Of a DNA stretch of 44,798 nucleotides, positions 212-32,185 are shown in pieces. Position 1 is the first letter of the stretch; each line of letters begins with the position of its first letter. Below the pieces are notes generated by a model that saw nothing but the letters and a program-made list of their open reading frames with translations, did not search any database and was not told the DNA's origin. Source of the DNA: Escherichia phage SECphi18. Made by a program: the position numbers and the translations under genes. The stretch is from the sequence record LT960609, one strand, 5' to 3'.

Positions 212-541
212 ATGAATGTAAACGACGCAATCGAAATGTTAACGAAGACTGTTAGCAGTGAGACAAGCCGGTCATGGTCTTATACCGATGCCGTTGGGGC
301 GGTGCTATTTGAGGTCGAGCGCCTGCGCAGTGTAGAAAAAGAATTACGCGCCAGGCTGGAATTGCTCAACGGTACGGCAGCCAGCAAGCTGCAAAAGCAC
401 AATGAAGAAATGGAAGAATACAAAAAGCAGGTTATCCGTTTGCGCGCCGAGGGCAAATCCTGGGCGATGATTGCCGAGTTGACCGGAATTAATCAGAGCA
501 CAGTGCGCTCCTGGGTACGCAATAATAAAACTTCTAAGTAA
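212..541 (+). CDS. Small helix-turn-helix DNA-binding protein (early regulator candidate)
   Basis: 109 aa; RBS gagggaagag before ATG; C-terminal HTH-like segment GKSWAMIAELTGINQSTVRSW. Confidence 0.55.
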   Translation: MNVNDAIEMLTKTVSSETSRSWSYTDAVGAVLFEVERLRSVEKELRARLELLNGTAASKLQKHNEEMEEYKKQVIRLRAEGKSWAMIAELTGINQSTVRSWVRNNKTSK

Positions 542-551
542 GGCCACGGCA

Positions 552-2816
552 ATGAGCTTAATTAAATTCGCTGTAACAAGACCCGCTAAAAAAGGCGAAA
601 AAGCCAGGGCGGAAAACTTCCAGATGACCACCGATGAATTTTTCGAATTTATCAAAGATGCGAAAGAAATCTCCTCGGTGCATATCAACAAGACGGAAGA
701 TAAAGCCGAGTATGCGCGCCGCAAGCGTAAGGCCGACGGCATCGTGGCTTATACCAGTGACGGATTGCGTCGTAAGACCAGTGCGGTGGACCGCTCGATC
801 CTGTTCTTTGATATCGACCGTACCGACACCCGCACCCTACGCCGCTGCCGTAAGGCGTTCATTGACGCGGGTCTGGAGCACGTCTTCCACACCACTACCG
901 GCGACCGCCACCCGCTGAAAGGCGGCACGCGTTGCGCCCGTTTCCTGGTGTTGACCGACAAGCCTGTACCGGCGGAAGACCTGGGCCGCGTCCAGTATGC
1001 ACTATTACACCAACTGGGTCTGTCAGATGTGGACTTCGACGATTGCACGAAAGACACAAACCGCCTTATGTACCTGCCACATCAGCAGTCTGTCGTTAAG
1101 TGTCACTACGGAAAACGTGCCCGCGTCCGTCGTCTGCTTCGCCTGGCTGATACGCTGGGAGTGGAGAAAGAGGAAGTGCGCCGCGAACTAACCCAGGGCG
1201 ATGACGGCGTGGCGGACGGAATTCTGGATTGGTGCTTCCAGGCAGGATTCGAACCGCTGTCGTCTGGTCGTGGTTATGAAGTGCCATGCCCGAACGAACA
1301 TCTGCATAGTGGCGAAGGGTCCACCGCAATCATGGTTAAGGATGGCGAGATCCGTTTCAAGTGTATGCACACCGGCAACGAGTGTTGCTCGGAACTGAAC
1401 AGACACCAGCATCTGGCGCTACGTCTTATCGGGATACCTGACCACCTGAACGTCGAACCACACAACATGTCACGTAAGCAAATCGCCGCCATCCTTCCAG
1501 GACTGGACGACGAGGAAGTGGAATCCTGCTATGAACATATCGTTGATGCAGTTGGCGACGGCGAAGAATACGGCGTGTGCACCGATGCCGACCTGGACAA
1601 CGAGCCGGTTGCGCTGTTCAGTAAGCACGACCCGATCATCGAGGGGTTGATTAACTTTAAATCGACCTGGTACATGGCGGGTGAGTCGAATATCGGTAAG
1701 TCTTTCTACGTGCTGGGGCAGATGGGTGCGGTTGCCGCGGGTATTCCGTTTGGCGGTGCGAAGGTCGTCCAGTCCCATTGCTTCTATTTCGATGCGGAAG
1801 GCGGCGAAGCCTCCAACCAGCGTAAGGAAGCATTGCAGATTAAATACGAGCACGACCTGGACAAGCTGCACATTATAGACCTGCAGTCACGCGGCTGGGA
1901 TATCACCAGCAAATCCGGCTTGCGCGAAGTTATCAGCTTTATCAACCGCACCGCTAACGGCGAACCGGTGGGCCTGGTGGCGTTCGACTCACTCAACCAG
2001 ACGGTTGCGTTGCGGTCCGCCGATGCTAAACCGTTCGACGAGAACAACGCCAGCGATATGGGTGAAGTGGTCAAAGCGCTGAAGGCCATCGCGGAAAATA
2101 CAGGTGGCAGTGCGGGCGTCATCCACCACCCGGCTAAAGGTGCAAACGGCAGCAGAACGCCACGCGGGTCCGGCGCGCTTCATGGTGCTGTCGATTCCGC
2201 GTTCTTCCTGGAACAACCGGACGACAACCAGCCCGGACAATTGAACCTGTATCACGAAAAGGCGCGTAACGGCATCAAGCAAGCGCCGCGCGGATTCGTC
2301 CTGCTCAAGTGCAAAGTTAAGGTGGATCTCCGCAAGTCCGAAGCGTTCGAAGCCCACCAGTCCACCAGCACCGGGCCAGACTTCGGCGATGTGGTTGCCG
2401 GTTGGGACGTCAAGCCGATCGCATCCACGCCTCGCGACGAGACTCTTTACCTCGTACCGGTCGCCCTGGCACCGTTCGCCATCGAACAGGCGAAGGCGGC
2501 GGGCAAGGCCGCAGTTAAGGAAGAGAACACCGCCGGACCGCGCAACGAAAAAGAGAAAGTGCTTTATGCGGCACTGGAAAAACTGATGGAAGATAACCCG
2601 GACCATACTGGATTCAGTAAATCGGCAATTGTCCGCCAGGCCGGACTCGCGAAAGGTGGCACATCGACGAAGGCAATCGACGATATGGTCGAGCGCGGCG
2701 TGCTTGGTTTTTATACAGATCCGCACACCGGGGCAATCTATGGGTCGTCGAATATCGTCATCAAAACGAATATACCCATCACGCTTTCGGCGACCGACGA
2801 CGACTTAAAAGATTAA
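552..2816 (+). CDS. DNA primase-helicase (RecA/DnaB-like ATPase with N-terminal primase-like domain)
   Basis: 754 aa; Walker A-like GESNIGKS in a RecA-like core; acidic N-terminal domain with FFDIDRTD. Confidence 0.6.
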   Translation: MSLIKFAVTRPAKKGEKARAENFQMTTDEFFEFIKDAKEISSVHINKTEDKAEYARRKRKADGIVAYTSDGLRRKTSAVDRSILFFDIDRTDTRTLRRCRKAFIDAGLEHVFHTTTGDRHPLKGGTRCARFLVLTDKPVPAEDLGRVQYALLHQLGLSDVDFDDCTKDTNRLMYLPHQQSVVKCHYGKRARVRRLLRLADTLGVEKEEVRRELTQGDDGVADGILDWCFQAGFEPLSSGRGYEVPCPNEHLHSGEGSTAIMVKDGEIRFKCMHTGNECCSELNRHQHLALRLIGIPDHLNVEPHNMSRKQIAAILPGLDDEEVESCYEHIVDAVGDGEEYGVCTDADLDNEPVALFSKHDPIIEGLINFKSTWYMAGESNIGKSFYVLGQMGAVAAGIPFGGAKVVQSHCFYFDAEGGEASNQRKEALQIKYEHDLDKLHIIDLQSRGWDITSKSGLREVISFINRTANGEPVGLVAFDSLNQTVALRSADAKPFDENNASDMGEVVKALKAIAENTGGSAGVIHHPAKGANGSRTPRGSGALHGAVDSAFFLEQPDDNQPGQLNLYHEKARNGIKQAPRGFVLLKCKVKVDLRKSEAFEAHQSTSTGPDFGDVVAGWDVKPIASTPRDETLYLVPVALAPFAIEQAKAAGKAAVKEENTAGPRNEKEKVLYAALEKLMEDNPDHTGFSKSAIVRQAGLAKGGTSTKAIDDMVERGVLGFYTDPHTGAIYGSSNIVIKTNIPITLSATDDDLKD

Positions 2817-2891
2817 ATTCTGCGCGCATTGGTTGCCGATATGGGAATTCCCATATCGCTAAAAGATTAAATTTTGCGTGCATTGGTTGCC
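2805..2891. repeat. Two copies of a ~33-nt unit (ttaaaagattaaattNtgcgNgcattggttgcc) spaced 54 nt apart
   Basis: Copy 1 overlaps the primase-helicase stop codon; copy 2 starts 54 nt downstream; each ends in an ATTGGTTGCC motif. Confidence 0.6.
2837..2858. promoter_or_regulatory. 22-bp perfect palindrome (candidate protein-binding site)
   Basis: cgatatgggaattcccatatcg is its own reverse complement; sits between the two repeat copies. Confidence 0.5.
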
Positions 2892-2976
2892 ATTTTGGGT
2901 GTTTTTATCCGGTCGTATTGGTTGCCGTGTCGTGTAAATATAGTGAATAGTTATGCAATAAAACTGCATAAACTAA

Positions 2977-3078
2977 GCGGGACAAAAAGCGGGACAAACA
3001 TGAGGCGGGACAAAGCGGGACAGCACCCCTGTCCCGCCCCGGATGACGCGGCCTGGCGAGGAGCGGGACAGCGGGACA
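2977..3078. repeat. Iteron cluster A: six direct GCGGGACA copies plus one inverted copy
   Basis: GCGGGACA at about 2977, 2989, 3005, 3015, 3063, 3071; inverted TGTCCCGC at about 3030; non-coding. Confidence 0.7.
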
Positions 3079-3138
3079 GCACCCCAGTCTTTCAGACTAG
3101 ACGGGGTCAGTGGCCCCCCCCCGTCTGAGACTGAATAA
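3064..3138 (+). other. Conserved ~75-nt structured element, copy A (paralog at 19504-19578)
   Basis: cgggacagcgggacagcaccccagtctttcagactagacgggg...ccccgtctgagactgaataa; hairpins agtct/agact and agacgggg/ccccgtct. Confidence 0.55.
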
Positions 3139-3294
3139 AATCCGGGAGATTGCAAAATACACGGCAGCATGATGCGGATTGCGGTCGTTGATGAACTAGG
3201 CAACCAATGCGGGGTGTATTATGCTGAGTGAAAAATGCGGTTTGCAGTTACAGCAGATAGCGATCGACTTTTTCATGCGCGTGATTAATATTGG

Positions 3295-3323
3295 TTGCAC
3301 CCACCCTGGCACCCTGCTATATT
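3295..3323 (+). promoter_or_regulatory. Sigma70-like promoter overlapping two ATTGGTTGCA motif copies
   Basis: -35 TTGCAC (inside motif copy), 17-nt spacer, -10 TATATT (start of second copy); about 30 nt upstream of the 3352 ATG. Confidence 0.5.
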
Positions 3324-3351
3324 GGTTGCACACCAACATGAGGACTGAACA

Positions 3352-3642
3352 ATGAAAAAATTAATCTGGAATTACGCAATGGCCCTGGCGAAGCTGGTCG
3401 AAGTGAAACAAACAAACGGCAGCGCACCAGAGGCGCGCCTGGTCGCTCCGGCCTGGCATGCGATCATGAACGCGACCGCGGGCCTGAAAGACCCCGAACC
3501 GCTGCGCATGGCTATCCGGGTCTTCGCGATGGCGTTTGCCCGTGAGCGCCTGGCCTATCGCTTCGGTATCGGTGAGACGGCAGCGACAAACGTCGCCCGG
3601 ATTAAAGCCCAGCGCGAACTATTTGCCCAGCTTGCGAAATAA
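3352..3642 (+). CDS. Hypothetical early protein
   Basis: 96 aa ORF; RBS tgaggac upstream of ATG. Confidence 0.5.
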   Translation: MKKLIWNYAMALAKLVEVKQTNGSAPEARLVAPAWHAIMNATAGLKDPEPLRMAIRVFAMAFARERLAYRFGIGETAATNVARIKAQRELFAQLAK

Positions 3643-3651
3643 GGGGCCAAA

Positions 3652-3924
3652 ATGGGCCGTAGACGAGCAAAACAGCTTTCGTGGCATATCCCCCTGCATT
3701 GCATACGAATATGGGCGGAGAATGCGGTTGAGGGCGATTCTGTGTTCTGGTGTTATCGCGATGATGTGAAGCCGCTGACACAGACTCGCTACTTGCACCA
3801 GTTCGCCAGGGAGCATGGGCTACCCATAAAAACGTCCTTGCAACCAATTGGCATTCGTATTACATTACGCCGGAAGCCCGCCGTTGAGCGGGTAGGCAAA
3901 CACTGGAGACTGAGCAAATGTTGA
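3652..3924 (+). CDS. Hypothetical early protein
   Basis: 90 aa ORF; RBS aagggg; starts 10 nt after the previous stop. Confidence 0.5.
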   Translation: MGRRRAKQLSWHIPLHCIRIWAENAVEGDSVFWCYRDDVKPLTQTRYLHQFAREHGLPIKTSLQPIGIRITLRRKPAVERVGKHWRLSKC

Positions 3925-4048
3925 TAGGCGGATTCTCGCAGGAGTTTATCTACCTGCATATGTGCGTACTTGACTACGAACAAAACGGCGTCGCCACGGT
4001 GTGCGATGGCGACACGAAGACTATCGAAGAGATTGAGGAGACAGAGCA

Positions 4049-4606
4049 ATGAAATTACTATTCCGCCGTAAAGCAGATGGCCGTATTCTGAAGCCGATCC
4101 AGACCCTGGATTCCTACGTCCGCCTGCAAAACGCGGCAGGCAATCGGGTGTGGCGGGCGCCGAAACACACGCTGCCGCAGTTCTTCGACGTACTCACTCA
4201 CGATATCGAGCGCGGAGATGTGCTGCGTGATATCCGCGACGGTAGTATGTGGATCGTTGAATATGTCGGTCTTCATGGTCTGCGTATGCAATCCCGCAAG
4301 GATGGCGTAGCAGGTATGACTTACTTCGGGCTGGTCAACTACGAGCGAGTGGGCCGAAAATACTGCCTTCGTGACCGCCAGCCGCATGAGCGCGTTGAGT
4401 TCCGCAAGTCACAGCCCGCCTACGCAACCTACGACTCCCACCAGGTGCAGGCGAGGATGAAACGCGCCGCACACGAAATCGTCAATCGCTTTGATGCCGT
4501 GACGAATGCACAGCGCCATGCGCAGGAATACGGCGTGGGGTTTATCCGTGTCGAACCAGACGGCAGCATGAATGCCATCGACCCGCGCTCGGTGATTCTG
4601 AAATGA
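4049..4606 (+). CDS. Hypothetical protein
   Basis: 185 aa ORF; RBS gaggagacagag before ATG. Confidence 0.5.
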   Translation: MKLLFRRKADGRILKPIQTLDSYVRLQNAAGNRVWRAPKHTLPQFFDVLTHDIERGDVLRDIRDGSMWIVEYVGLHGLRMQSRKDGVAGMTYFGLVNYERVGRKYCLRDRQPHERVEFRKSQPAYATYDSHQVQARMKRAAHEIVNRFDAVTNAQRHAQEYGVGFIRVEPDGSMNAIDPRSVILK

Positions 4607-4743
4607 GTGCGTCTATCCGTGATATGCTGATGCACAACCGCTTTGAGATAGGCGGTCGGGTGTTTCGCAATTACTTCGTGGCGCGTGCCTGGGCGCGCCA
4701 TATTGGCAAACCAGAGGGGGCAATACGATGCTACACGATTTAA
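4603..4743 (+). CDS. Small hypothetical protein (46 aa)
   Basis: ATG overlaps upstream stop (ATGA); clean 46-codon frame ending at TAA; below the ORF-track length cutoff. Confidence 0.25.
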   Translation: MSASIRDMLMHNRFEIGGRVFRNYFVARAWARHIGKPEGAIRCYTI

Positions 4744-5015
4744 TATATTGGTTTGGATTGGGGTGCGCGACACTCGTTGTTACGGTGCTGGCGCTGTTGG
4801 TATGGGTATTCCTGATTTGGCCCGCGGTGGAAGCTGCCAGTATTACCCGCATGACGTTTCAGATATACAAGCGCCGTGGAATCACGGAGCACCCGACCAG
4901 GTTGCGCATGTGGTGGCTATGGTATCGCGATATGATAGGGGGCCGGGTGTTCGAGGCCGTCCGATCGGAAGGGTGGGAGTGGAAAGGCGTCGGCAAGTGG
5001 TCCATTTTCGATTAA
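4728..5015 (+). CDS. Small membrane protein
   Basis: 95 aa; RBS gaggggg; hydrophobic N-terminal segment LGCATLVVTVLALLVWVFLIW. Confidence 0.45.
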   Translation: MLHDLIYWFGLGCATLVVTVLALLVWVFLIWPAVEAASITRMTFQIYKRRGITEHPTRLRMWWLWYRDMIGGRVFEAVRSEGWEWKGVGKWSIFD

Positions 5016-24445: not shown

Positions 24446-25053
24446 CCACATTTAAATTATACGGCGTTTTAGGACGTCGATTCGGTAAAGTGCATAAGCT
24501 GGACTGCTTCACTCCGGGCGAGGGTATCACCGGCCTGTGCGTGAAGTTACCCGGCTTACAGGACTTTCTAATGTCGGCCCACCTGGACAATATGATGTTC
24601 AAGGTGCGCAAAGGCGACCACACGATGACCGGCTATGATGAGCTGGGCGAGTTCCACGGCAACCGCGTCGTCACCATCGCGCCGGTTATGACTGGCGCAA
24701 AAAGAGGGTTGGGACAATTGCTGGCGGGTGTCGCGATCGTAGTGGCGTCGTTCTATACGGGCGGACTTGCTACTGCCGCTTTCGGGGCTTCGGCTGCAAC
24801 CGCTGCCGCTATCGGGACGGCAACGTTTTCGTTCGGCATGTCGATGGCGCTGGGTGGAGTTATGCAATTGCTGTCGCCTCAACCGAAAGGATTGCAAACA
24901 CGGCAGGACGTGGATAACAAGGCTTCGTATGCGTTCGGGGGGCCGGTGAACACGACCGCGCAAGGCACGGCACTTGGTGTATTATGGGGCGAGCGTGAGA
25001 TCGGCGGCGCTATTATTTCAGCCGGAATCGTAACCGAGGATTTGAACGAATGA
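24436..25053 (+). CDS. Tail assembly protein I-like
   Basis: 205 aa; overlaps K and J genes; Gly/Ala-rich hydrophobic C-terminus. Confidence 0.6.
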   Translation: MAMTTFKLYGVLGRRFGKVHKLDCFTPGEGITGLCVKLPGLQDFLMSAHLDNMMFKVRKGDHTMTGYDELGEFHGNRVVTIAPVMTGAKRGLGQLLAGVAIVVASFYTGGLATAAFGASAATAAAIGTATFSFGMSMALGGVMQLLSPQPKGLQTRQDVDNKASYAFGGPVNTTAQGTALGVLWGEREIGGAIISAGIVTEDLNE

Positions 25054-28000
25054 CGATTATCTACGACGTCACGGGCCATAAAGGCGGCGGCGGAAAACAG
25101 CACACCCCACAGGAGACGCCCGATAGCCTGCATTCGCTGGCTAAAATCCGCATCTTGCTCGCGTTGGGTGAAGGGGAATTCGAAGGCATTACGAGCGCCA
25201 GCGAATTGCGGCAGCGTGTATACCTGGACGGAACACCGATCCAGAACGCAGACCTGTCAGAAAACTTCCCTGGAGCGCGTGTGGAGTTCCGCCCCGGAAC
25301 ACAACACCAGGATGTGATCCACGGATTTTCAGCGGTGGAAAGTGAGCAATCCGTTGGGGTAAAACTGGAGAACGGCACGCCGTGGGTGCGCCAGATTAAC
25401 GACACCAGTTTGGACGCCGTGCGCATTCGCATCGGCATTCCGGCCTTGTACACAAACGAAGATAATGGCGACCTGGTGGGTGGGCGCATCGACTATAAGA
25501 TCGTTGTGTATACGGATAACGCCGACCCGCGTGAGTTTACCTTCGCCGCCGTTGGTAAAACAATGTCGCTATACGAGCGCGATCACCGCATCGAGCTACC
25601 GCCGAACGTTAACACCGGCTGGCGCGTGGAGGTGCACCGCATAACGGCAGACTCCACATCGGCGAAAGTGGTTAATGATATCCGGGTGCAGTCCATCACT
25701 GAGATTATCGACGCCCGCCTGCGTTACCCGCTAACCGCGCTGTTGTTTGTGGAGTTCGACGCCAAAGCGTTCCAGAACATCCCGCGCGTGTCCATCAAGT
25801 GCAAAGGCCGCAAAGTTCTAATACCGAACAACTACGACCCGATTAATCATACTTATTCGGGGGACTGGGACGGCACGTTCAAACGCGCATGGACGGATAA
25901 CCCTGCGTGGCACTGGTACGATATTTGTATTACTGAGCGCTTCGGCCTCGGTCGCCGGATCAAACCGCAAATGCTGAACCGGTACGCGCTCTACCAGATC
26001 GCGCAGCGCTGCGATCAGTTGGTAAGTGACGGCAACGGCGGACGGGAAATCAGATTTAAGAATGATATGTACATCCAGTCGCAGACAGACGCCTGGACCG
26101 TGCTTAAGGATTTAGCTGCCATCTTCGCCGGGATGACCTGGTGGGGAAACCAAATGTTGAATATCGTCAGTGACCAACCGGTCGCAGCAGTGTCGCACAC
26201 TATCACCAACGCCTCGGTTATTGATGGTCGATTCGACTACGCATCTGGCAGCCAGAAAACGCGGTACTCCACTTTCGCGGTAGCATACGGCAACCCGAAA
26301 AACCACTATGATGACGCTATCGCAACGGGCCAGCGCGTCGAACTGGTGCGCCGCCATAAGATTAACCGTCTTGATATAACGGCGATCGGCTGTACGCGCG
26401 AATCTGAAGCGCAACGCCGCGGACACTGGGCGCTAATCTCCAACCAGTTGGACCAGCAGGTCAGCTTTAAGGTTGGCATGGAGGGGCTATTCTTTATTCC
26501 TGGTAGCGTAGTAGCGATCGCGGATACTAATATTTCTGGCGGATTTGAGACTCGCGGCGGTCGCCTGTTGTCAGACCCTGGCACGCGTACCGTGCTTAAC
26601 ACAGACAGCGAAATCACATTCCGCCCCGGCGATAAGTTCCTGGTGCGCACCGATAGCGGAAATGTGGAGACTCGCGAGATCGCCAGCGTCAACGGCAACA
26701 AGGTCACGCTAAAAACCGCACTGGATGCCGACCCGATTCCAGACCAACCGTTTTGCGTTGATGGCGATGATATCCAGTTGCAAAAATTCCGCATCACCGA
26801 TCTGGAGTATGACGACTCTACGAGCACTTTCTCGGTGCGCGGGATTGAATACAACGATAGCAAGTATGATGCCGTTGATAATGGCGCTCGCCTTGATCCT
26901 GGTATCTTCACGCAAGTGCCAGACGGTGTAATGAAGGGGCCGGAATCCGTTACCATCACCCCGTCGCAGATCTCATCGCAAGGCCAGCTAATCACCAACG
27001 TGGATATTGTTTTCCCGCCGGTGAAGGATGCCGTTGTGTATGAAATCCAGTGGCGACGTACCAGCTTGCAGAATATGGCGATCCAGTGGGGTAACGACTG
27101 GGTGAACATTCCCCGCACGGCATCGAACGGTGCGCACATCCCGAACGTGTTTTCCGGCAACTATCAGGCACGCGTCCGTGCGATCGGTATGGGCGAGATT
27201 TCATCCCCGTGGGTGTCGTCCGCCATCACGCCGGTGGAAGGTCGCCTCGGTGGGCTTAACGCACCAATCATCACCAACGCGATTTCGGGTCTGCATCAAA
27301 TTCTATGGAAGTGGAACCACAACAACGCCGCGACTGATATTTCGTACACCGAGCTTGAAGTGCGCAAGACTGGCGAAACGGAATGGAAGTTCCTAACCAA
27401 CGTCCCATATCCGGGGTCGGAGTATGCGCAAACGTCGCTGGAGTTCGGAATTTACCAGCAGTTGCGCGCCCGTGTAGCTGATAAAATCGGCAACCTGTCG
27501 GACTGGTCCGCCCCGTTTGAAGGCCAGGTGAGTGACAAAGTTGACGAGTACATGAAGGGGCTTGATGACGAGTTCTTGACTTCCGAGGATGGTAAACGCT
27601 TCCAGGAAGCAATCGACACAATCCCGCAGGGTATTTACGAGGCGATGCTCACCGACGCGCAGCAATTGTTCAACGCCCGCGCCGAGTACAAGGGTATTTA
27701 TGCGGAAATCTCGGTCGCGTATAACGTGGCGGCGGACGCCCACAAGGCGGTCGCTCAACTGGAGACGTTGATCGGCACGCGACTTGACGATGCTGAAGCG
27801 GCGATCCACACGTTGCAGACAGCGCAAAGCACGCACGAGCAAGCCTTCGCCCAGTACCAGCAAACTGTTGCCGCTAAGTTCGGGGACCAGGAAGCCGCCA
27901 TCCAGCAGGTACAAACGGCAACGAGCACCAATGCTCAGGCGCTGGCGGATTATAAAGTCCACGTAGCGGCGCAGTTTGACCAACAGTCCGCAGCTATCGA

Positions 28001-28469
28001 GCAGAAGATGACGTCCACGTTTAACCATGCTGGTGGCAACGCCACGTACAGCCTTAAGGCGGGCGTGACGTATAACGGGACTTACTATGATGCCGGTATG
28101 CAGCTTTCCGTCGTGGCGGAAGGCGGCGCGGTTAAATCCCGCATCGCATTCAAAGCGGACCAGTTCTACATCATGCACCCATCTAACGGGTCGCTTTCGT
28201 CCGCGTTTATCGTAGACGGCGGCGCGGTGTATATTGACACGGCACGCATCAAAGACGCGACTATCAACTTCGCGCAGATTACGGACACGTTGCAATCGAA
28301 TAACTATGACGGCTACTCGCGTGGTTGGCGCTTAGGGAAAGACGGAACGTTTATCAACCTGGGAACCGGTAACGGTGGCGGGATGAAACAGACAAACACG
28401 CAAATCAGCGTTAGGGACGGAAACGGCGTGCTCCGCGTGCAAATTGGTGAAATCACAGGTTATTGGTAA
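25050..28469 (+). CDS. Central tail fibre / host specificity protein J-like
   Basis: 1139 aa; ATG overlaps upstream stop; size and position after I. Confidence 0.8.
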   Translation: MTIIYDVTGHKGGGGKQHTPQETPDSLHSLAKIRILLALGEGEFEGITSASELRQRVYLDGTPIQNADLSENFPGARVEFRPGTQHQDVIHGFSAVESEQSVGVKLENGTPWVRQINDTSLDAVRIRIGIPALYTNEDNGDLVGGRIDYKIVVYTDNADPREFTFAAVGKTMSLYERDHRIELPPNVNTGWRVEVHRITADSTSAKVVNDIRVQSITEIIDARLRYPLTALLFVEFDAKAFQNIPRVSIKCKGRKVLIPNNYDPINHTYSGDWDGTFKRAWTDNPAWHWYDICITERFGLGRRIKPQMLNRYALYQIAQRCDQLVSDGNGGREIRFKNDMYIQSQTDAWTVLKDLAAIFAGMTWWGNQMLNIVSDQPVAAVSHTITNASVIDGRFDYASGSQKTRYSTFAVAYGNPKNHYDDAIATGQRVELVRRHKINRLDITAIGCTRESEAQRRGHWALISNQLDQQVSFKVGMEGLFFIPGSVVAIADTNISGGFETRGGRLLSDPGTRTVLNTDSEITFRPGDKFLVRTDSGNVETREIASVNGNKVTLKTALDADPIPDQPFCVDGDDIQLQKFRITDLEYDDSTSTFSVRGIEYNDSKYDAVDNGARLDPGIFTQVPDGVMKGPESVTITPSQISSQGQLITNVDIVFPPVKDAVVYEIQWRRTSLQNMAIQWGNDWVNIPRTASNGAHIPNVFSGNYQARVRAIGMGEISSPWVSSAITPVEGRLGGLNAPIITNAISGLHQILWKWNHNNAATDISYTELEVRKTGETEWKFLTNVPYPGSEYAQTSLEFGIYQQLRARVADKIGNLSDWSAPFEGQVSDKVDEYMKGLDDEFLTSEDGKRFQEAIDTIPQGIYEAMLTDAQQLFNARAEYKGIYAEISVAYNVAADAHKAVAQLETLIGTRLDDAEAAIHTLQTAQSTHEQAFAQYQQTVAAKFGDQEAAIQQVQTATSTNAQALADYKVHVAAQFDQQSAAIEQKMTSTFNHAGGNATYSLKAGVTYNGTYYDAGMQLSVVAEGGAVKSRIAFKADQFYIMHPSNGSLSSAFIVDGGAVYIDTARIKDATINFAQITDTLQSNNYDGYSRGWRLGKDGTFINLGTGNGGGMKQTNTQISVRDGNGVLRVQIGEITGYW

Positions 28470-28472
28470 CAC

Positions 28473-28493
28473 AGGGGCTTCGGCCCCTTTCTT
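28473..28493 (+). terminator. Intrinsic terminator after the J-like gene
   Basis: ggggc-ttcg-gcccc followed by tttctt. Confidence 0.45.
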
Positions 28494-28506
28494 AGGGAGG
28501 TATAGC

Positions 28507-28809
28507 ATGGCTTTCGGTGTCGCAACATGGGACGCGCAAGGGCGACCAAACAACTACGGGATAAAGCCCGTTTCGGTTGTCGGAATTATTAAACTGGCAC
28601 AAGGTCAAACATCGGGGGCGTGGTCGTTCGATATTCCGTCAGGTATGAAAGTAGGTTTTGCGGTTACGCTGGACGTAGGCGGCACTACGGTCGGTCGGGC
28701 GATCCGTGCCAGCGGGAACACGATAACAGTATCTGCCGCAAACAGCGTCGGCATTGGCAACTACCCAGCATCAGAATGTGAAGTAGTAGTTTTTGTGGAG
28801 AAAGCGTAA
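28507..28809 (+). CDS. Hypothetical tail-associated protein
   Basis: 100 aa from internal ATG with RBS agggagg; N-terminus MAFGVATWDAQG resembles the next gene (MANFGALIDNNNG). Confidence 0.45.
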   Translation: MAFGVATWDAQGRPNNYGIKPVSVVGIIKLAQGQTSGAWSFDIPSGMKVGFAVTLDVGGTTVGRAIRASGNTITVSAANSVGIGNYPASECEVVVFVEKA

Positions 28810-28811
28810 AA

Positions 28812-29483
28812 ATGGCAAACTTCGGAGCATTAATTGACAACAACAACGGCAACCCATTCGTCACGCCAAACTCAACGCCATTCGTCCTCTACGCTAAGGT
28901 GTCGGCAAATTCAGTGGACGCCGGTGCGGATTATAAAACAGCAAGCGGTGGAGTGGATATCCCCGCGAACTATCCGGCGATGGTGTTCATGCGGTCCAAT
29001 AACCGTTGCGTCCTGGCGGCGTCACGATCAGGTAACCGGATTATATTTAGCGGAAGCATTCAGGGCCAGAATAACCCACATTTTACCGTCACGGCGTACA
29101 TATTCGCGCGATTCCCGCAACCGCTGCCGAGATGGGGGTTTGCTATTTGGGACGCCAGTGGGACGTGCATACTAACCAACGAAAGCAAGGTGCTCACCGA
29201 TCTAGTCACTGTCGGCAGCTTCGGCAATAACGGCGGGATCAACATAGACCAGACGCTGCCGGGTAAGTACGCGGTATCACCTATGTTAATGGGCGCCACT
29301 CTGATCCAGATCTTTGTACAAGGGTCGCCGCTGATTATCCAGATCTCGGCGGGGGCAGGGGCTTACGACAACGGAAGCGGCACTCGTATTAACGCGGTCG
29401 CTACGCAGGCTGGGTCAGGGAGCATCGCAGGGTATCAAAACACCGGCGTTGCTCTGACCGCAATTAACGTGGATGGGATATGA
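28812..29483 (+). CDS. Hypothetical tail-associated protein
   Basis: 223 aa; starts 3 nt after the previous gene; Gly/Asn/Ser-rich. Confidence 0.45.
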   Translation: MANFGALIDNNNGNPFVTPNSTPFVLYAKVSANSVDAGADYKTASGGVDIPANYPAMVFMRSNNRCVLAASRSGNRIIFSGSIQGQNNPHFTVTAYIFARFPQPLPRWGFAIWDASGTCILTNESKVLTDLVTVGSFGNNGGINIDQTLPGKYAVSPMLMGATLIQIFVQGSPLIIQISAGAGAYDNGSGTRINAVATQAGSGSIAGYQNTGVALTAINVDGI

Positions 29484-29500
29484 AACGCCCCGAAAGGGGC

Positions 29501-29719
29501 TTATTCGCAGGTGGTGCTTTTGAAGTGGTCGACCGACACATACTGGAAGTTGAATGGGTATCCTGCCCGTAACATTTTATGTCCGCTAAAGTCGGCGACC
29601 CCAAACACCGGGACGGAATACTCCATACCACTATTCATGTATGTTGCGTCGCATATTTTAGACGGCATGTAGGCACAACCGGACAAAAGAACCGCACAAA
29701 TCATAATTAAAGTTTTCAT
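29501..29719 (-). CDS. Small secreted lipoprotein (superinfection-exclusion candidate)
   Basis: 72 aa from internal ATG with RBS aggaga; signal peptide MKTLIMICAVLLSGC with lipobox; three further Cys; opposite strand to the tail genes. Confidence 0.6.
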   Translation of the reverse strand: MKTLIMICAVLLSGCAYMPSKICDATYMNSGMEYSVPVFGVADFSGHKMLRAGYPFNFQYVSVDHFKSTTCE

Positions 29720-29773
29720 GGTATCATCTCCTATATTTGGTTTAGTTTTAGTATTGCACTGCTTAACCATTAA

Positions 29774-29783
29774 TGCAACCAAT
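29774..29783. promoter_or_regulatory. Operator-motif copy in the divergent region between lipoprotein and tail fibre genes
   Basis: TGCAACCAAT about 17 nt upstream of the tail fibre ATG. Confidence 0.4.
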
Positions 29784-29799
29784 TTATGAGGATTCAGCT

Positions 29800-31578
29800 A
29801 TGGCAGCGGGTACACTATCCGTAACGAATAACAGCAAGGCGGTTGTCGGGGTAGGCACGACGTTTACCGCGTTTAAAGCTGGCGACTTCTTAACGCTGGT
29901 GGTAGGGCAAGTCCCATACACCGTGGCAATCGCGTCCATTGAAAGCGCAACCGCGCTCACGCTGGTGTTACCGTTCGACGGCCCAACGGCAACCGGCCTT
30001 GCGTGGGATGGCGTTAAGCGCGATACCATGTCGCTGGCAACGATGGGCGTTACCGTACAGGCCCAAAAAGCATTGCGCTTGATGATTGCAGATGAAAACA
30101 ACTGGCGTGCAATCTTCGGCGATGCTGAAGAAATCACAGTCACGCTCCCGAACGGGCAAGTTATGCAGGGTATGTCGTGGGGCTACCTGTCGTCTTTGCT
30201 GAAGGAAGTAGACCCCGTTGAGATGCGCAACCTGCAACAACAAGCCGCCGCATCGGAAGCAGCCGCGCAAGGATTCCGTAACGAGGCGGAAGGCTTCAAG
30301 AACGACGCCAACACCATCAAGACGCAGACCAACCAGATTAAGGCGGATACGCAGGCGATCAAGGACCAAACGAATCAGATCAAGACTGACACTGGCGTTA
30401 TTCGTGATGAAGCCAATACTGCGAAGGAGGACGCGCAATCTGCCCGCACTGCCGCGCAAGGATTTCGCAATGAGGCTGAACAATTCGCTAATAGTGTTAA
30501 CCCGGAAAACCTACTTGCGAAGGCCAACAACTTAAGTGATGTTGCGGATGTGGCTGTGGCGCGCGAAAACATTGGTGTAGACCGCCTAACGCAAAACATA
30601 ACCAGCGGCGAAACACAAATCAGGACTGCGGCGAGTAATAAATGGATCTTCGTTAAGGAAAATGGCGACTGGGGCGGGTGGGATAATGCCAACAATAAAG
30701 CCATGCCGCTGCCGATTGCATTCGGTGGTACGGGGCGCGGCGATAACGTCGCCGCGTTCCGCCAGTTTAAGTCTAACGGCGAATCCCCGGACGGATTAAT
30801 CCTCAAGCAGGCTGGGGCCGGTTTCGGTGGCGCAGGCTGGGCCAATTCAGCGGATAAAGTACGCTGGCGTATGGGCATCGACGAAGCCTCTGGCCATTTT
30901 AAAATGTACTCATACGACGCAGCGGGAGCGTATCGAGACACCGTCCTCGAGATCACCGGAGCAGGACTCGGGGGCATGGTGTTGTCCCGTGATATGACCG
31001 TGCGCCCGACGACGGCAGTTCCCGCGCGATCGTTCGTTCTAAACAACGGAAAAGCTACCGTCCCGGCTGGTAACTTCCGCACGATGTGGGATACGGTTAA
31101 TATCAATAGTGACCAGATCTATAAATATTTTGAGAAGGGAGACGGCACTGGCTTTACAGTCAATTGGCCCTCATCCGGTGGTGTTATTGCCCTCCAGGGT
31201 ACATCAGGAAGGGACTTTAAGAAAGATATTACCGACGCGGATGTTACAGAAGCGGTTGCACGCATTGAACAAATGCGCATGGTGCGCTACGTGTATAAGG
31301 ACGATGTGCAGGAGCGCGTCCGCTTCGGCATCATTGCCGAGGAAGCAGAAGAGATTGCGCCTCAATACATCAAACACCGTGAGGAGACGTACGATGTGGA
31401 GGTGGACCCCGAGACTAACGCCATCGTCGGGGGTAAGACGCGCGACCGTCCGTCGGTAGACGTTAACCCTATCGTGATGGACTTGATGGGGTGCGCACAA
31501 TATGCGATCGCTGAGTGTAAACGCCTGGCGGCGGAAGTGGAGGATTTGAAAGCCGAGATCGCGGCGTTGAAGAAATAA
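29800..31578 (+). CDS. Tail fibre with C-terminal intramolecular chaperone domain
   Basis: 592 aa from ATG with RBS gagga; central repeats (QTNQIKADTQAIKDQTNQIKTDTG); C-terminus resembles autoproteolytic S74-type chaperone domains. Confidence 0.65.
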   Translation: MAAGTLSVTNNSKAVVGVGTTFTAFKAGDFLTLVVGQVPYTVAIASIESATALTLVLPFDGPTATGLAWDGVKRDTMSLATMGVTVQAQKALRLMIADENNWRAIFGDAEEITVTLPNGQVMQGMSWGYLSSLLKEVDPVEMRNLQQQAAASEAAAQGFRNEAEGFKNDANTIKTQTNQIKADTQAIKDQTNQIKTDTGVIRDEANTAKEDAQSARTAAQGFRNEAEQFANSVNPENLLAKANNLSDVADVAVARENIGVDRLTQNITSGETQIRTAASNKWIFVKENGDWGGWDNANNKAMPLPIAFGGTGRGDNVAAFRQFKSNGESPDGLILKQAGAGFGGAGWANSADKVRWRMGIDEASGHFKMYSYDAAGAYRDTVLEITGAGLGGMVLSRDMTVRPTTAVPARSFVLNNGKATVPAGNFRTMWDTVNINSDQIYKYFEKGDGTGFTVNWPSSGGVIALQGTSGRDFKKDITDADVTEAVARIEQMRMVRYVYKDDVQERVRFGIIAEEAEEIAPQYIKHREETYDVEVDPETNAIVGGKTRDRPSVDVNPIVMDLMGCAQYAIAECKRLAAEVEDLKAEIAALKK

Positions 31579-31588
31579 ATAAATAGAA

Positions 31589-31611
31589 GGGGCCATGCGG
31601 CCCCTTTTTTT
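31589..31611. terminator. Bidirectional intrinsic terminator
   Basis: ggggcc-atgc-ggcccc followed by T7; lies between convergent genes. Confidence 0.6.
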
Positions 31612-32185
31612 AGTTTGAGTTTTCCCAGTCCATTTTTCGCCGCACCAGGGGGCTTTCGTAGTATTCCTTTCCGTCCACTTCCACTAAGGGCCAGTCATTA
31701 ACAATGACGTATGGTTCCGCGATATCCTCGATCACGCCATGCGCGCTTTGCGGCCCTAACGACACACCAACCAGGATAACACCGGCAACGCGACGGGCAA
31801 GATACTCGCGAGCGCAACGCGCCTCTACCAGTCCGCGACGGATGCCGCTGGTGGCCTTAACCTCGTAGGTCCATACGGCATCAATCACATGCTCGCGGAA
31901 GTCTGGACCGGACTTAACCTTGCGTTTACCGACCATGATGATATCGCCGCGGTCAATGGTATTGGCGCTAAACAGGCCGGTACGCATCAGTAAGCCTTGC
32001 GGGATACAACTACGCCCGCCCGCCTGGCCCTCAAGGTACATGCCAGCAAACATCTCGCCCAGCACACCGACAAGACGGCTTTGCTTGCACGCGTCAGACT
32101 TTAAGCGCCACTGGTCAAACTCGATGCTTGCTATCATAGCCGCCAGGTGGAATTGTTTACCGGATATTTCATATTCGCCGTACAT
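31610..32185 (-). CDS. Hypothetical protein, possible PD-(D/E)xK nuclease fold
   Basis: 191 aa; GPDF...VWTYEVK resembles a PD...ExK motif; weak. Confidence 0.35.
   Translation of the reverse strand: MYGEYEISGKQFHLAAMIASIEFDQWRLKSDACKQSRLVGVLGEMFAGMYLEGQAGGRSCIPQGLLMRTGLFSANTIDRGDIIMVGKRKVKSGPDFREHVIDAVWTYEVKATSGIRRGLVEARCAREYLARRVAGVILVGVSLGPQSAHGVIEDIAEPYVIVNDWPLVEVDGKEYYESPLVRRKMDWENSN

What the first reader, a model, noticed from the sequence alone, without database searches (positions are those of the whole stretch)
31150..31578. Tail fibre C-terminus resembles an autoproteolytic intramolecular chaperone
The last ~140 aa match the general pattern of S74-type chaperone domains that are cleaved off after fibre trimerisation, so the mature fibre tip would be upstream of this domain.
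Basis: inference. Interest (0 to 1): 0.35.

Follow-up and report, generated by a model that had tools for sequence, protein, structure and literature searches.

The report
Self-cleaving chaperone on phage tail fibre

Summary
Confirmed and ordinary. Window 31150-31578 is the C-terminus of the lateral tail-fibre gene (ORF 29773-31578, +; probable true start 29800) of a Dhillonvirus-type siphophage. The gene is about 93% nt identical to Sodalis phage SO-1 gp25 and Escherichia phage Oekolampad.

- **Pfam match:** PF13884 (Peptidase_S74) matches aa 479-532 at 43.5 bits against a cut-off of 22. That is a higher score than T5 pb1 or K1F endosialidase get in the same test.
- **Catalytic residues:** in the register of that match, Ser478 (nt 31204-31206) and Lys483 (nt 31219-31221), in the motif GT|SGRDFKKDI, correspond to T5 Ser1264/Lys1269 and K1F Ser911/Lys916. 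S-x4-K is kept in 126 of 128 distant relatives.
- **Fold:** an AF2 model of aa 466-601 (pLDDT 80) has its nine best PDB matches all in intramolecular-chaperone structures (MyRF ICA, K1F 3GW6).

The domain is 124 aa (Ser478-Lys601, about 14 kDa), not about 140. The predicted mature fibre ends at Thr477. The tip plus chaperone (aa 339-600) is 77% identical to LtfB of T5-like phage DT57C, so this part looks like a horizontally exchanged cassette.

Cleavage itself is inferred, not shown. The upstream Asp/Arg "folding sensor" of T5, K1F and GA-1 could not be located by sequence. A C-terminal chaperone domain on a Dhillonvirus fibre is already published (PMC11990801).

The parts
29773..31578 (+). 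Lateral (side) tail-fibre gene. The longest ORF is 601 aa. The probable true start is ATG 29800 (Met10), giving 592 aa.
   Evidence: ORF list. PHROG 1980 'tail fiber protein', E 3e-138. 93.6% nt identity to Sodalis phage SO-1 gp25 and 92.7% to Oekolampad 'lateral tail fiber protein'. GAGGA lies 7 nt before ATG 29800, and Oekolampad's annotated start corresponds to it.
29800..30018 (+). N-terminal anchor domain (aa 10-82). This part is conserved across Dhillonvirus fibres.
   Evidence: Sequence match to PDB chain 23gd_B 'distal tail protein gp20', E 3e-4. ORF nt 1-714 is the part shared at 83-90% with many Dhillonvirus genomes whose C-terminal halves differ.
30220..30507 (+). Coiled-coil shaft (aa ~150-245).
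   Evidence: Match to the T7 gp17 shaft (7boz, E 3e-4) and weak coiled-coil Pfam hits.
30787..31203 (+). Distal tip, the presumed receptor-binding part of the mature fibre (aa 339-477). It ends at Thr477.
   Evidence: aa 339-600 is 77% identical to DT57C LtfB aa 531-785. ORF nt 1066-1721 is 84.5% identical to ltfB and nt 868-1764 is 83.7% identical to T1-like phage ADB-2. The receptor-binding role is inferred by analogy with LtfA/LtfB and T5 pb1 (PMC4728585, PMC4690869).
31201..31206 (+). Predicted scissile bond Thr477|Ser478 (ACx TCA). Ser478 is the predicted nucleophile.
   Evidence: Pfam profile position 1 maps to aa 478. The same position is Ser1264 in T5 pb1 and Ser911 in K1F (alignment). 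T5 is cleaved at Thr1263-Ser1264 (PMC4690869). Thr-Ser is invariant in 24 homologues. Thr precedes the Ser in 92 of 126 distant relatives.
31219..31221 (+). Lys483, the predicted general base of the Ser-Lys dyad.
   Evidence: Aligns with T5 Lys1269 and K1F Lys916. Invariant in 24 of 24 homologues. S-x4-K is present in 126 of 128 representatives.
31204..31575 (+). Intramolecular chaperone / Peptidase_S74 domain, 124 aa, about 14.1 kDa. It is predicted to be released after trimer folding.
   Evidence: Pfam PF13884. AF2 model with pLDDT 80. Foldseek top 9 hits are MyRF ICA 7dc3 (E 1e-4, prob 1.00) and K1F chaperone 3gw6 (E 7e-3, prob 0.97). Masses.
31369..31458 (+). Long beta-hairpin (aa 533-562). 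It corresponds to the 'tentacle' of solved chaperone domains.
   Evidence: Strands at residues 68-79 and 86-97 of the model. Tentacles are described for the T5 chaperone in PMC4690869.
31468..31572 (+). C-terminal long helix (aa 566-600), the presumed trimeric coiled coil. It contains a one-heptad insertion, AIAECKR (aa 578-584, nt 31504-31524).
   Evidence: Helix at residues 101-135 of the model, pLDDT 95-98. The insertion is seen against 16 homologues and DT57C LtfB.
31585..31615 (.). GC-rich hairpin followed by a T-run: an intrinsic-terminator-like site directly after the fibre stop codon, between convergent genes.
   Evidence: 10-pair stem with 6 GC pairs, then TTTTTTT. No separate fibre-assembly chaperone gene follows on the + strand.

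Best explanation
The last 124 residues (Ser478-Lys601; nt 31204-31575) of the lateral tail-fibre protein of this Dhillonvirus-like siphophage are an S74-type C-terminal intramolecular chaperone. The proposed sequence of events is as follows. Three nascent fibre chains are brought into register by the chaperone's C-terminal coiled-coil helix and its alpha/beta body. Its long beta-hairpins pack against the fibre tip and help the tip fold. Once the trimer is correctly folded, Lys483 activates Ser478, the Thr477-Ser478 bond is cut in each chain, and the roughly 14-kDa chaperone trimer leaves. That exposes the receptor-binding tip (aa ~339-477) of a roughly 50-kDa mature fibre. Shown here: domain identity, catalytic residues, position and predicted fold. 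Inferred from T5 pb1, K1F endosialidase and GA-1 gp12: trimer-dependent cleavage, release, and unmasking of the tip.
For: - Pfam PF13884 scores 43.5 bits against a cut-off of 22, E 3.8e-11. The validated members score 35.9 (T5 pb1), 36.3 (K1F) and 68.7 (GA-1) in the same test.
- Profile register puts Ser478/Lys483 on T5 Ser1264/Lys1269 and K1F Ser911/Lys916.
- QGTSG and the Lys are invariant in 24 homologues. S-x4-K is kept in 126 of 128 representatives at 50% identity or less, and the domain ends a median of 6.5 residues from the C-terminus.
- The AF2 model of aa 466-601 (pLDDT 80) shows helix, hairpin, long hairpin and long C-terminal helix. Its nine best PDB matches are all intramolecular-chaperone structures, and the next hit has E 0.4. 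The larger, poorer model still ranked the GA-1 chaperone 3gud first.
- Sequence hits MyRF ICA 7dc3 at E about 1e-3 to 8e-5.
- 77% identity to DT57C LtfB over tip plus chaperone. Its authors predict the same autocleavable domain (PMC4728585).
- No separate fibre-assembly chaperone gene lies downstream; a terminator follows directly.
- The T5 mechanism and the S1264A block of cleavage are in PMC4690869.
- A Dhillonvirus fibre with a C-terminal chaperone domain is reported in PMC11990801.
Against: - No experimental evidence of cleavage exists for this protein or, as far as I found, for its nearest relatives. In DT57C the site is only predicted (PMC4728585), and the cryo-EM entry 8hqz does not resolve the fibre C-termini (PMC10713586).
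- The Asp/Arg pair upstream of the cut, proposed as the folding sensor and oxyanion-hole former in T5 (Asp1239, Arg1250) and visible as 'DN..G...R' in K1F and GA-1, has no obvious counterpart. No Arg or Asp column upstream of the site is conserved in this subfamily.
- Direct hhalign of the narrow family profiles against the single T5 and K1F sequences found nothing meaningful, so the link to them rests on the Pfam model and the fold.
- TM-scores of the fold matches are only about 0.4. The model is a monomer of what is an intertwined trimer.
Confidence: 0.87

Rival explanations
1. The S74-like domain is present but is not cleaved. It stays on the virion as the distal end of the fibre, either as a structural cap or as a regulated mask of the tip.
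For: The canonical upstream Asp/Arg sensor residues of T5, K1F and GA-1 cannot be found in this subfamily. Cleavage has only been predicted, not shown, for the closest relative DT57C LtfB (PMC4728585).
Against: Ser, Lys and the preceding Thr are invariant across the subfamily and nearly so across distant relatives. That is hard to explain without selection for catalysis. In T5 the uncleaved form does not compete for the receptor (PMC4690869), so a permanently attached domain would be expected to block the tip.
Confidence: 0.08
2. The fibre depends mainly on a separate, trans-acting assembly chaperone (Tfa, gp38 or gp57-like), and the C-terminal domain is a vestige.
For: Many side tail fibres (lambda Stf/Tfa, T4 gp37/gp38) use separate chaperones. 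This rests on established knowledge, not on a tool result.
Against: No + strand ORF follows the fibre gene; a terminator hairpin follows at 31585-31608. The next genes are convergent and have no tail annotation (PHROG 10558 and 9871, function unknown). The domain is highly conserved.
Confidence: 0.03
3. The match is a chance or low-complexity (coiled-coil) resemblance and there is no S74 domain.
For: The C-terminal 35 residues are a generic amphipathic helix, which gives a weak DUF1843 hit.
Against: The Pfam match covers the non-helical N-terminal 54 residues of the domain at E 3.8e-11, twice the gathering score. The fold search returns only chaperone structures at the top.
Confidence: 0.01

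Closest known systems
LtfB (and LtfA) L-shaped tail-fibre proteins of T5-like phage DT57C
   Same: aa 339-600 is 77% identical to LtfB aa 531-785, and aa 455-595 is 59% identical to the LtfA C-terminus. Both share the QGT|SG..(Y/F)KKD motif and the PF13884 hit. The authors predict autocleavage at the same motif (PMC4728585).
   Different: The N-terminal two thirds are unrelated: a Dhillonvirus anchor and coiled coil here, against a branch attached through LtfA there. The window protein carries a 7-aa heptad insertion in the terminal helix. LtfB is reported to bind O81 O-antigen (PMC10713586). At 77% identity the specificity here cannot be assumed.
Lateral tail fibres of Dhillonvirus phages (Sodalis phage SO-1 gp25, Oekolampad bas18_0027, RuthEpting Gp29)
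   Same: It is the same gene in the same genomic position. Identity is 93.6% nt to SO-1, with a C-terminal 142 aa that is 100% identical, and 92.7% nt to Oekolampad. RuthEpting Gp29 is described as an N-terminal coiled coil plus a T5-like tip plus a C-terminal chaperone domain (PMC11990801).
   Different: RuthEpting and most other Dhillonviruses share only the first ~714 nt and carry other tip/chaperone alleles.
[quoted passage not shown]
   Same: PF13884 member with the same profile register, a Thr|Ser scissile bond and Lys at +5. The architecture is an alpha/beta body, a long beta-hairpin tentacle and a C-terminal coiled coil (one search compared with PMC4690869).
   Different: No significant pairwise or hhalign similarity. 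The T5 domain is 133 aa against 124. The T5 Asp1239/Arg1250 motif was not found here.
Endosialidase (K1F gp17) C-terminal chaperone domain, the founding member of MEROPS S74 (PDB 3GW6)
   Same: The Ser911/Lys916 dyad aligns with Ser478/Lys483. Foldseek probability is 0.97, E 7e-3.
   Different: It sits on an enzymatic tailspike of a podovirus. It is longer, with large insertions. TM-score is only about 0.38.
MyRF ICA (intramolecular chaperone auto-processing) domain of eukaryotic myelin regulatory factor (PDB 7DC3)
   Same: It is the best structural match (E 1e-4, prob 1.00, 24% identity) and a sequence match at E 1e-3 to 8e-5.
   Different: It belongs to a eukaryotic membrane-tethered transcription factor. 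There, cleavage releases an N-terminal DNA-binding trimer rather than maturing a virion fibre.

Membership tests
Peptidase S74 / C-terminal intramolecular chaperone domain (Pfam PF13884) | Significant match to the family profile above the curated threshold | tested here: met
   43.5 bits against a cut-off of 22, E 3.8e-11, aa 479-532 on profile positions 2-56 of 58. Controls: T5 pb1 35.9, K1F 36.3, GA-1 68.7, DT57C LtfB 41.2 bits.
Peptidase S74 / C-terminal intramolecular chaperone domain (Pfam PF13884) | Catalytic Ser-Lys dyad (Ser at the scissile bond, Lys five residues later) in register with K1F Ser911/Lys916 | tested here: met
   Ser478 and Lys483 fall on profile positions 1 and 6, as do T5 Ser1264/Lys1269 and K1F Ser911/Lys916. 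Invariant in 24 homologues. Present in 126 of 128 distant representatives.
Peptidase S74 / C-terminal intramolecular chaperone domain (Pfam PF13884) | Located at the extreme C-terminus of a phage fibre or spike protein | tested here: met
   The domain runs to the stop codon of a PHROG 1980 tail-fibre protein. In relatives the domain ends a median of 6.5 residues from the C-terminus.
Peptidase S74 / C-terminal intramolecular chaperone domain (Pfam PF13884) | Characteristic fold: alpha/beta body, long beta-hairpin 'tentacle', C-terminal coiled-coil helix | tested here: met
   The AF2 monomer model (pLDDT 80) has these elements. The Foldseek top 9 hits are all 7dc3 or 3gw6 chains, and 3gud ranks first for the larger model. 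Caveat: TM-score is about 0.4 because a monomer model is being compared with intertwined trimers.
Peptidase S74 / C-terminal intramolecular chaperone domain (Pfam PF13884) | Upstream residues of the mature part (Asp, and Arg from a neighbouring chain) that couple cleavage to correct trimer folding | tested here: inconclusive
   T5 Asp1239/Arg1250 and the equivalent 'DN..G...R' of K1F and GA-1 have no aligned counterpart. No conserved Arg or Asp column lies upstream of the site in 24 homologues. A trimer model or structure would be needed.
Peptidase S74 / C-terminal intramolecular chaperone domain (Pfam PF13884) | Autoproteolytic release after trimerisation, and a requirement of the domain for folding | not testable with these tools
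   This needs protein expression of wild type against S478A/K483A, or virion mass spectrometry.
T5 pb1-like 'bullet' receptor-binding tip | Sequence or profile similarity of aa ~339-477 to pb1 residues 970-1263 | tested here: not met
   BLASTP of the fibre against pb1 gave no hit at E<=1. hhalign of A1 against pb1 970-1396 gave probability 0.1%. The AF2 monomer model of the tip has pLDDT about 40-60, so fold comparison is meaningless. A T5-like tip is claimed only for another Dhillonvirus allele (PMC11990801).

The most novel reading that the evidence does not exclude
This enterobacterial 'QGT|SG' subfamily of chaperone domains (Dhillonvirus, DT57C LtfA/LtfB, ADB-2 and many prophage fibres) lacks the Asp/Arg folding-sensor motif of T5, K1F and GA-1. 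It may therefore couple cleavage to trimer folding through different residues, or cleave conditionally, so that the domain masks the receptor-binding tip until a later cue.
Probability: 0.1. Interest if true: 0.35.

Novelty: already known. Interest (0 to 1): 0.1.

Why it matters
The practical value is for annotation and engineering.

- The functional receptor-binding fibre ends at Thr477 (nt 31203).
- Recombinant tip constructs must include aa 478-601 in order to fold, and should then be expected to lose that part.
- Host-range swaps should move the tip together with its chaperone as one cassette, which is what nature has done between Dhillonvirus, T1-like and T5-like phages.

It opens no new biological question. 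The domain family, its mechanism and its presence on Dhillonvirus fibres are all published.

Tried and rejected
1. **8hqz hit.** The PDB sequence hit 8hqz_d (E 3e-45) looked like a solved structure of the domain. It is DT57C LtfA, 1076 aa, and only its N-terminal part is modelled (PMC10713586). It therefore gives no structural information on the chaperone.
2. **Mislabelled control.** I first used a fibre from 'T5_ev219' as if it were T5 pb1. Its length and its V|S site did not fit the published Thr1263-Ser1264. It is a DT57C-like second fibre. True pb1 was then fetched from NC_005859.
3. **hhalign.** Family alignments A1 and A2 compared with single T5 and K1F sequences gave nothing significant. 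The profiles are narrow (Neff 2-3).
4. **First AF2 model.** The tip-plus-chaperone model had pLDDT 64, and its tip part was unusable. Its Foldseek result was weak, with 3gud at E 0.1. A second model of the chaperone alone gave the usable result.
5. **Profile search of the PDB.** A search with A1 did not reach T5, K1F or GA-1 entries.
6. **Literature search on SO-1.** A search for virion proteomics of SO-1 found nothing useful.

Full report
**1. What is at the coordinates**

The interval 31150-31578 is the 3' end of a + strand ORF at 29773-31578 (601 codons). Nucleotide 31150 is the first base of codon 460. The ORF is a tail-fibre gene:
- PHROG 1980 'tail fiber protein', E 3e-138 over aa 10-601.
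- 93.6% nt identity over its whole length to Sodalis phage SO-1 gp25, and 92.7% to the 'lateral tail fiber protein' of Escherichia phage Oekolampad, a Dhillonvirus.

The second half of the window (20000-44798) matches SO-1 and other Dhillonvirus-type genomes at about 92% over 91-95% of its length. The window is therefore essentially a Dhillonvirus genome.

The gene follows a lambda-J-like central fibre gene (25050-28469), two small ORFs and a minus-strand Cor-like lipoprotein. A GC-rich hairpin plus T-run follows it at 31585-31615. After that come convergent genes of unknown function.

The real start codon is probably ATG 29800 (Met10). GAGGA lies 7 nt upstream, and the Oekolampad annotation starts at the equivalent codon. 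I keep the 601-aa numbering and give nucleotide coordinates.

**2. Is the S74 resemblance real?**

Yes. Pfam PF13884 (Peptidase_S74, 'chaperone of endosialidase') matches aa 479-532 on profile positions 2-56 of 58. The score is 43.5 bits against a gathering cut-off of 22, E 3.8e-11.

As a control I ran the experimentally characterised members through the same search:

| Protein | Bits | Residues matched | Profile positions |
|---|---|---|---|
| T5 pb1 | 35.9 | 1264-1323 | 1-57 |
| K1F endosialidase | 36.3 | 916-971 | 6-58 |
| GA-1 gp12 | 68.7 | not recorded | not recorded |
| DT57C LtfB | 41.2 | not recorded | not recorded |

The window protein scores better than two of the founding members. 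The profile register also fixes the catalytic residues:
- Profile position 1 is Ser1264 in T5, Ser911 in K1F and Ser478 here (TCA, nt 31204-31206).
- Profile position 6 is Lys1269, Lys916 and Lys483 (AAG, nt 31219-31221).

A MAFFT alignment shows the same correspondence: window GT|SGRDFKKDI, T5 NT|SDARLKNDV, K1F VT|SNGERKTEP, GA-1 NT|SDERHKTDI.

In T5 the Thr1263-Ser1264 bond is cut, S1264A blocks cutting, and Lys1269 is proposed to activate the serine (PMC4690869).

**3. Conservation**

In 23 non-redundant homologues from enterobacterial genomes and metagenomes, all carrying a precomputed PF13884 hit, G476, T477, S478, G479 and K483 are invariant.

An exhaustive phmmer search with the 124-aa domain against 1.84 billion 50%-identity representatives found 140 proteins at E<=1e-3. 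Of the 128 whose alignment reaches the site:
- 126 have S-x4-K there.
- Thr precedes the Ser in 92.
- The domain ends a median of 6.5 residues from the C-terminus, in proteins of 68-1720 aa.

So the domain behaves as a portable C-terminal module with its catalytic dyad under selection.

**4. Fold**

An AF2 model of tip plus chaperone (aa 356-601) was poor. Mean pLDDT was 64, and about 40-60 in the tip. Even so, it ranked the GA-1 chaperone 3gud first (E 0.1, prob 0.84).

A second model of aa 466-601 had mean pLDDT 80. Its elements are:
- two short helices;
- a short hairpin;
- a long beta-hairpin (aa 533-562);
- a 35-residue C-terminal helix (aa 566-600, pLDDT 95-98).

This is the arrangement described for the T5 chaperone: a mixed alpha/beta body, long hairpin tentacles and a central coiled coil (PMC4690869).

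Its nine best Foldseek PDB matches are the three chains of the MyRF ICA domain 7dc3 (E 1e-4, prob 1.00) and the six chains of the K1F chaperone 3gw6 (E 7e-3 to 5e-2). The tenth hit has E 0.4. TM-scores are only about 0.4, which is expected when a monomer model is compared with chains taken from intertwined trimers. MyRF ICA is also hit by sequence, E 1e-3 to 8e-5.

**5. Boundaries and products**

The chaperone domain is Ser478-Lys601, 124 aa and 14.1 kDa (nt 31204-31575). The predicted mature fibre ends at Thr477 (nt 31203). Its mass is about 49.8 kDa from Met10 or 50.8 kDa from Met1.

**6. Context and evolution**

Only ORF nt 1-714 (anchor and coiled coil) is shared with most Dhillonviruses. 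Nucleotides 868-1764 are shared with the T1-like phage ADB-2 (83.7%), and nt 1066-1721 with ltfB of the T5-like phage DT57C (84.5%).

At protein level, aa 339-600 is 77% identical to LtfB aa 531-785. The distal tip and its chaperone thus travel together as a cassette between three siphovirus lineages. That fits a chaperone that must match its own tip.

Golomidova et al. noted pfam13884 domains and predicted cleavage sites on LtfA and LtfB (PMC4728585). LtfB is reported to recognise O81 O-antigen (PMC10713586). Humolli et al. describe the Dhillonvirus RuthEpting fibre as a coiled coil, a T5-like tip and a C-terminal chaperone domain (PMC11990801). The feature is therefore already known for this genus.

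**7. Mechanism**

Shown here:
- domain identity;
- the catalytic dyad;
- the C-terminal position;
- the predicted fold;
- the absence of a separate downstream assembly-chaperone gene.

Inferred from T5, K1F and GA-1:
- the chaperone nucleates and registers the trimer through its coiled coil and tentacles;
- cleavage at Thr477|Ser478 occurs only in the folded trimer;
- release unmasks the tip. In T5 only the cleaved form competes with phage for the receptor (PMC4690869).

**8. What does not fit neatly**

The Asp/Arg pair in the mature part is proposed to sense correct folding and form the oxyanion hole. It is T5 Asp1239/Arg1250, and appears as the 'DN..G...R' motif in K1F and GA-1. It has no aligned equivalent here, and no Arg or Asp column upstream of the site is conserved among 24 homologues. 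This may only mean the residue sits elsewhere in a different tip fold, and a trimer model would be needed to tell. It leaves a small chance (about 0.1) that this subfamily couples cleavage to folding differently.

Direct hhalign against single T5 and K1F sequences found nothing. The PDB hit 8hqz_d is LtfA, whose C-terminus is not modelled.

**9. Verdict**

Novelty: already known. Interest: low.

Noticed in passing
window 29773-29802: The longest ORF starts at ATG 29773, with no Shine-Dalgarno sequence. ATG 29800 (Met10) has GAGGA 7 nt upstream and corresponds to the annotated start of Oekolampad's fibre gene. Homology to PHROG and PDB entries also begins at aa 10. The real protein is probably 592 aa.
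   Followed up: yes
window 31504-31524 (aa 578-584): There is a seven-residue (one heptad) insertion, AIAECKR, in the C-terminal coiled-coil helix of the chaperone domain. It is absent from DT57C LtfB and from 16 other homologues. It is present in SO-1 (100% identical domain) and apparently in ADB-2. It preserves the heptad register; its significance is unknown.
   Followed up: partly
window 28444-29719: A receptor-binding locus lies between the J-like gene and the lateral fibre gene. It has two + strand ORFs (121 aa, PHROG 557; 223 aa, PHROG 425) and a minus-strand 72-aa lipoprotein (lipobox LLSGC) that matches Cor superinfection exclusion protein (PHROG 1119, E 9e-28). Oekolampad, whose lateral fibre is nearly the same, carries a different locus here (two minus-strand ORFs). 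The two fibre systems therefore assort independently. Cor suggests an FhuA-type terminal receptor, but this was not tested.
   Followed up: partly
window 20000-44798 against the phage collection: Records labelled 'Campylobacter phage A144' (MG065648.1), 'Sodalis phage SO-1' and an Acinetobacter-labelled record match this coliphage-type genome at about 92% nt over most of its length. The host labels of some of these records look doubtful, for example because of carry-over or contaminant coliphage.
   Followed up: no
window 31585-31615: A perfect GC-rich hairpin (GGGGCC ATGC GGCCCC) is flanked by an A-rich run on one side and a T-run on the other. It is scored as a terminator on both strands and sits exactly between the convergent fibre gene and the minus-strand gene 31610-32185. 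It is probably a bidirectional terminator separating the structural and early/replication modules.
   Followed up: partly
window 31150-31203 (aa 440-477) and homologues: This chaperone subfamily has an invariant P-x(3-4)-G-x-(L/I)-A-(L/V)-Q-G-T|S-G pre-cleavage motif. It lacks the 'DN..G...R' motif that precedes the cut in T5, K1F and GA-1.
   Followed up: partly
L002 (LR597655.1, 'T5_ev219') 449-4881: This T5-named genome carries a DT57C-like two-gene fibre locus (808-aa and 573-aa proteins) rather than a single 1396-aa pb1. The 573-aa protein ends in an S74 domain with a Val|Ser site instead of Thr|Ser.
   Followed up: no
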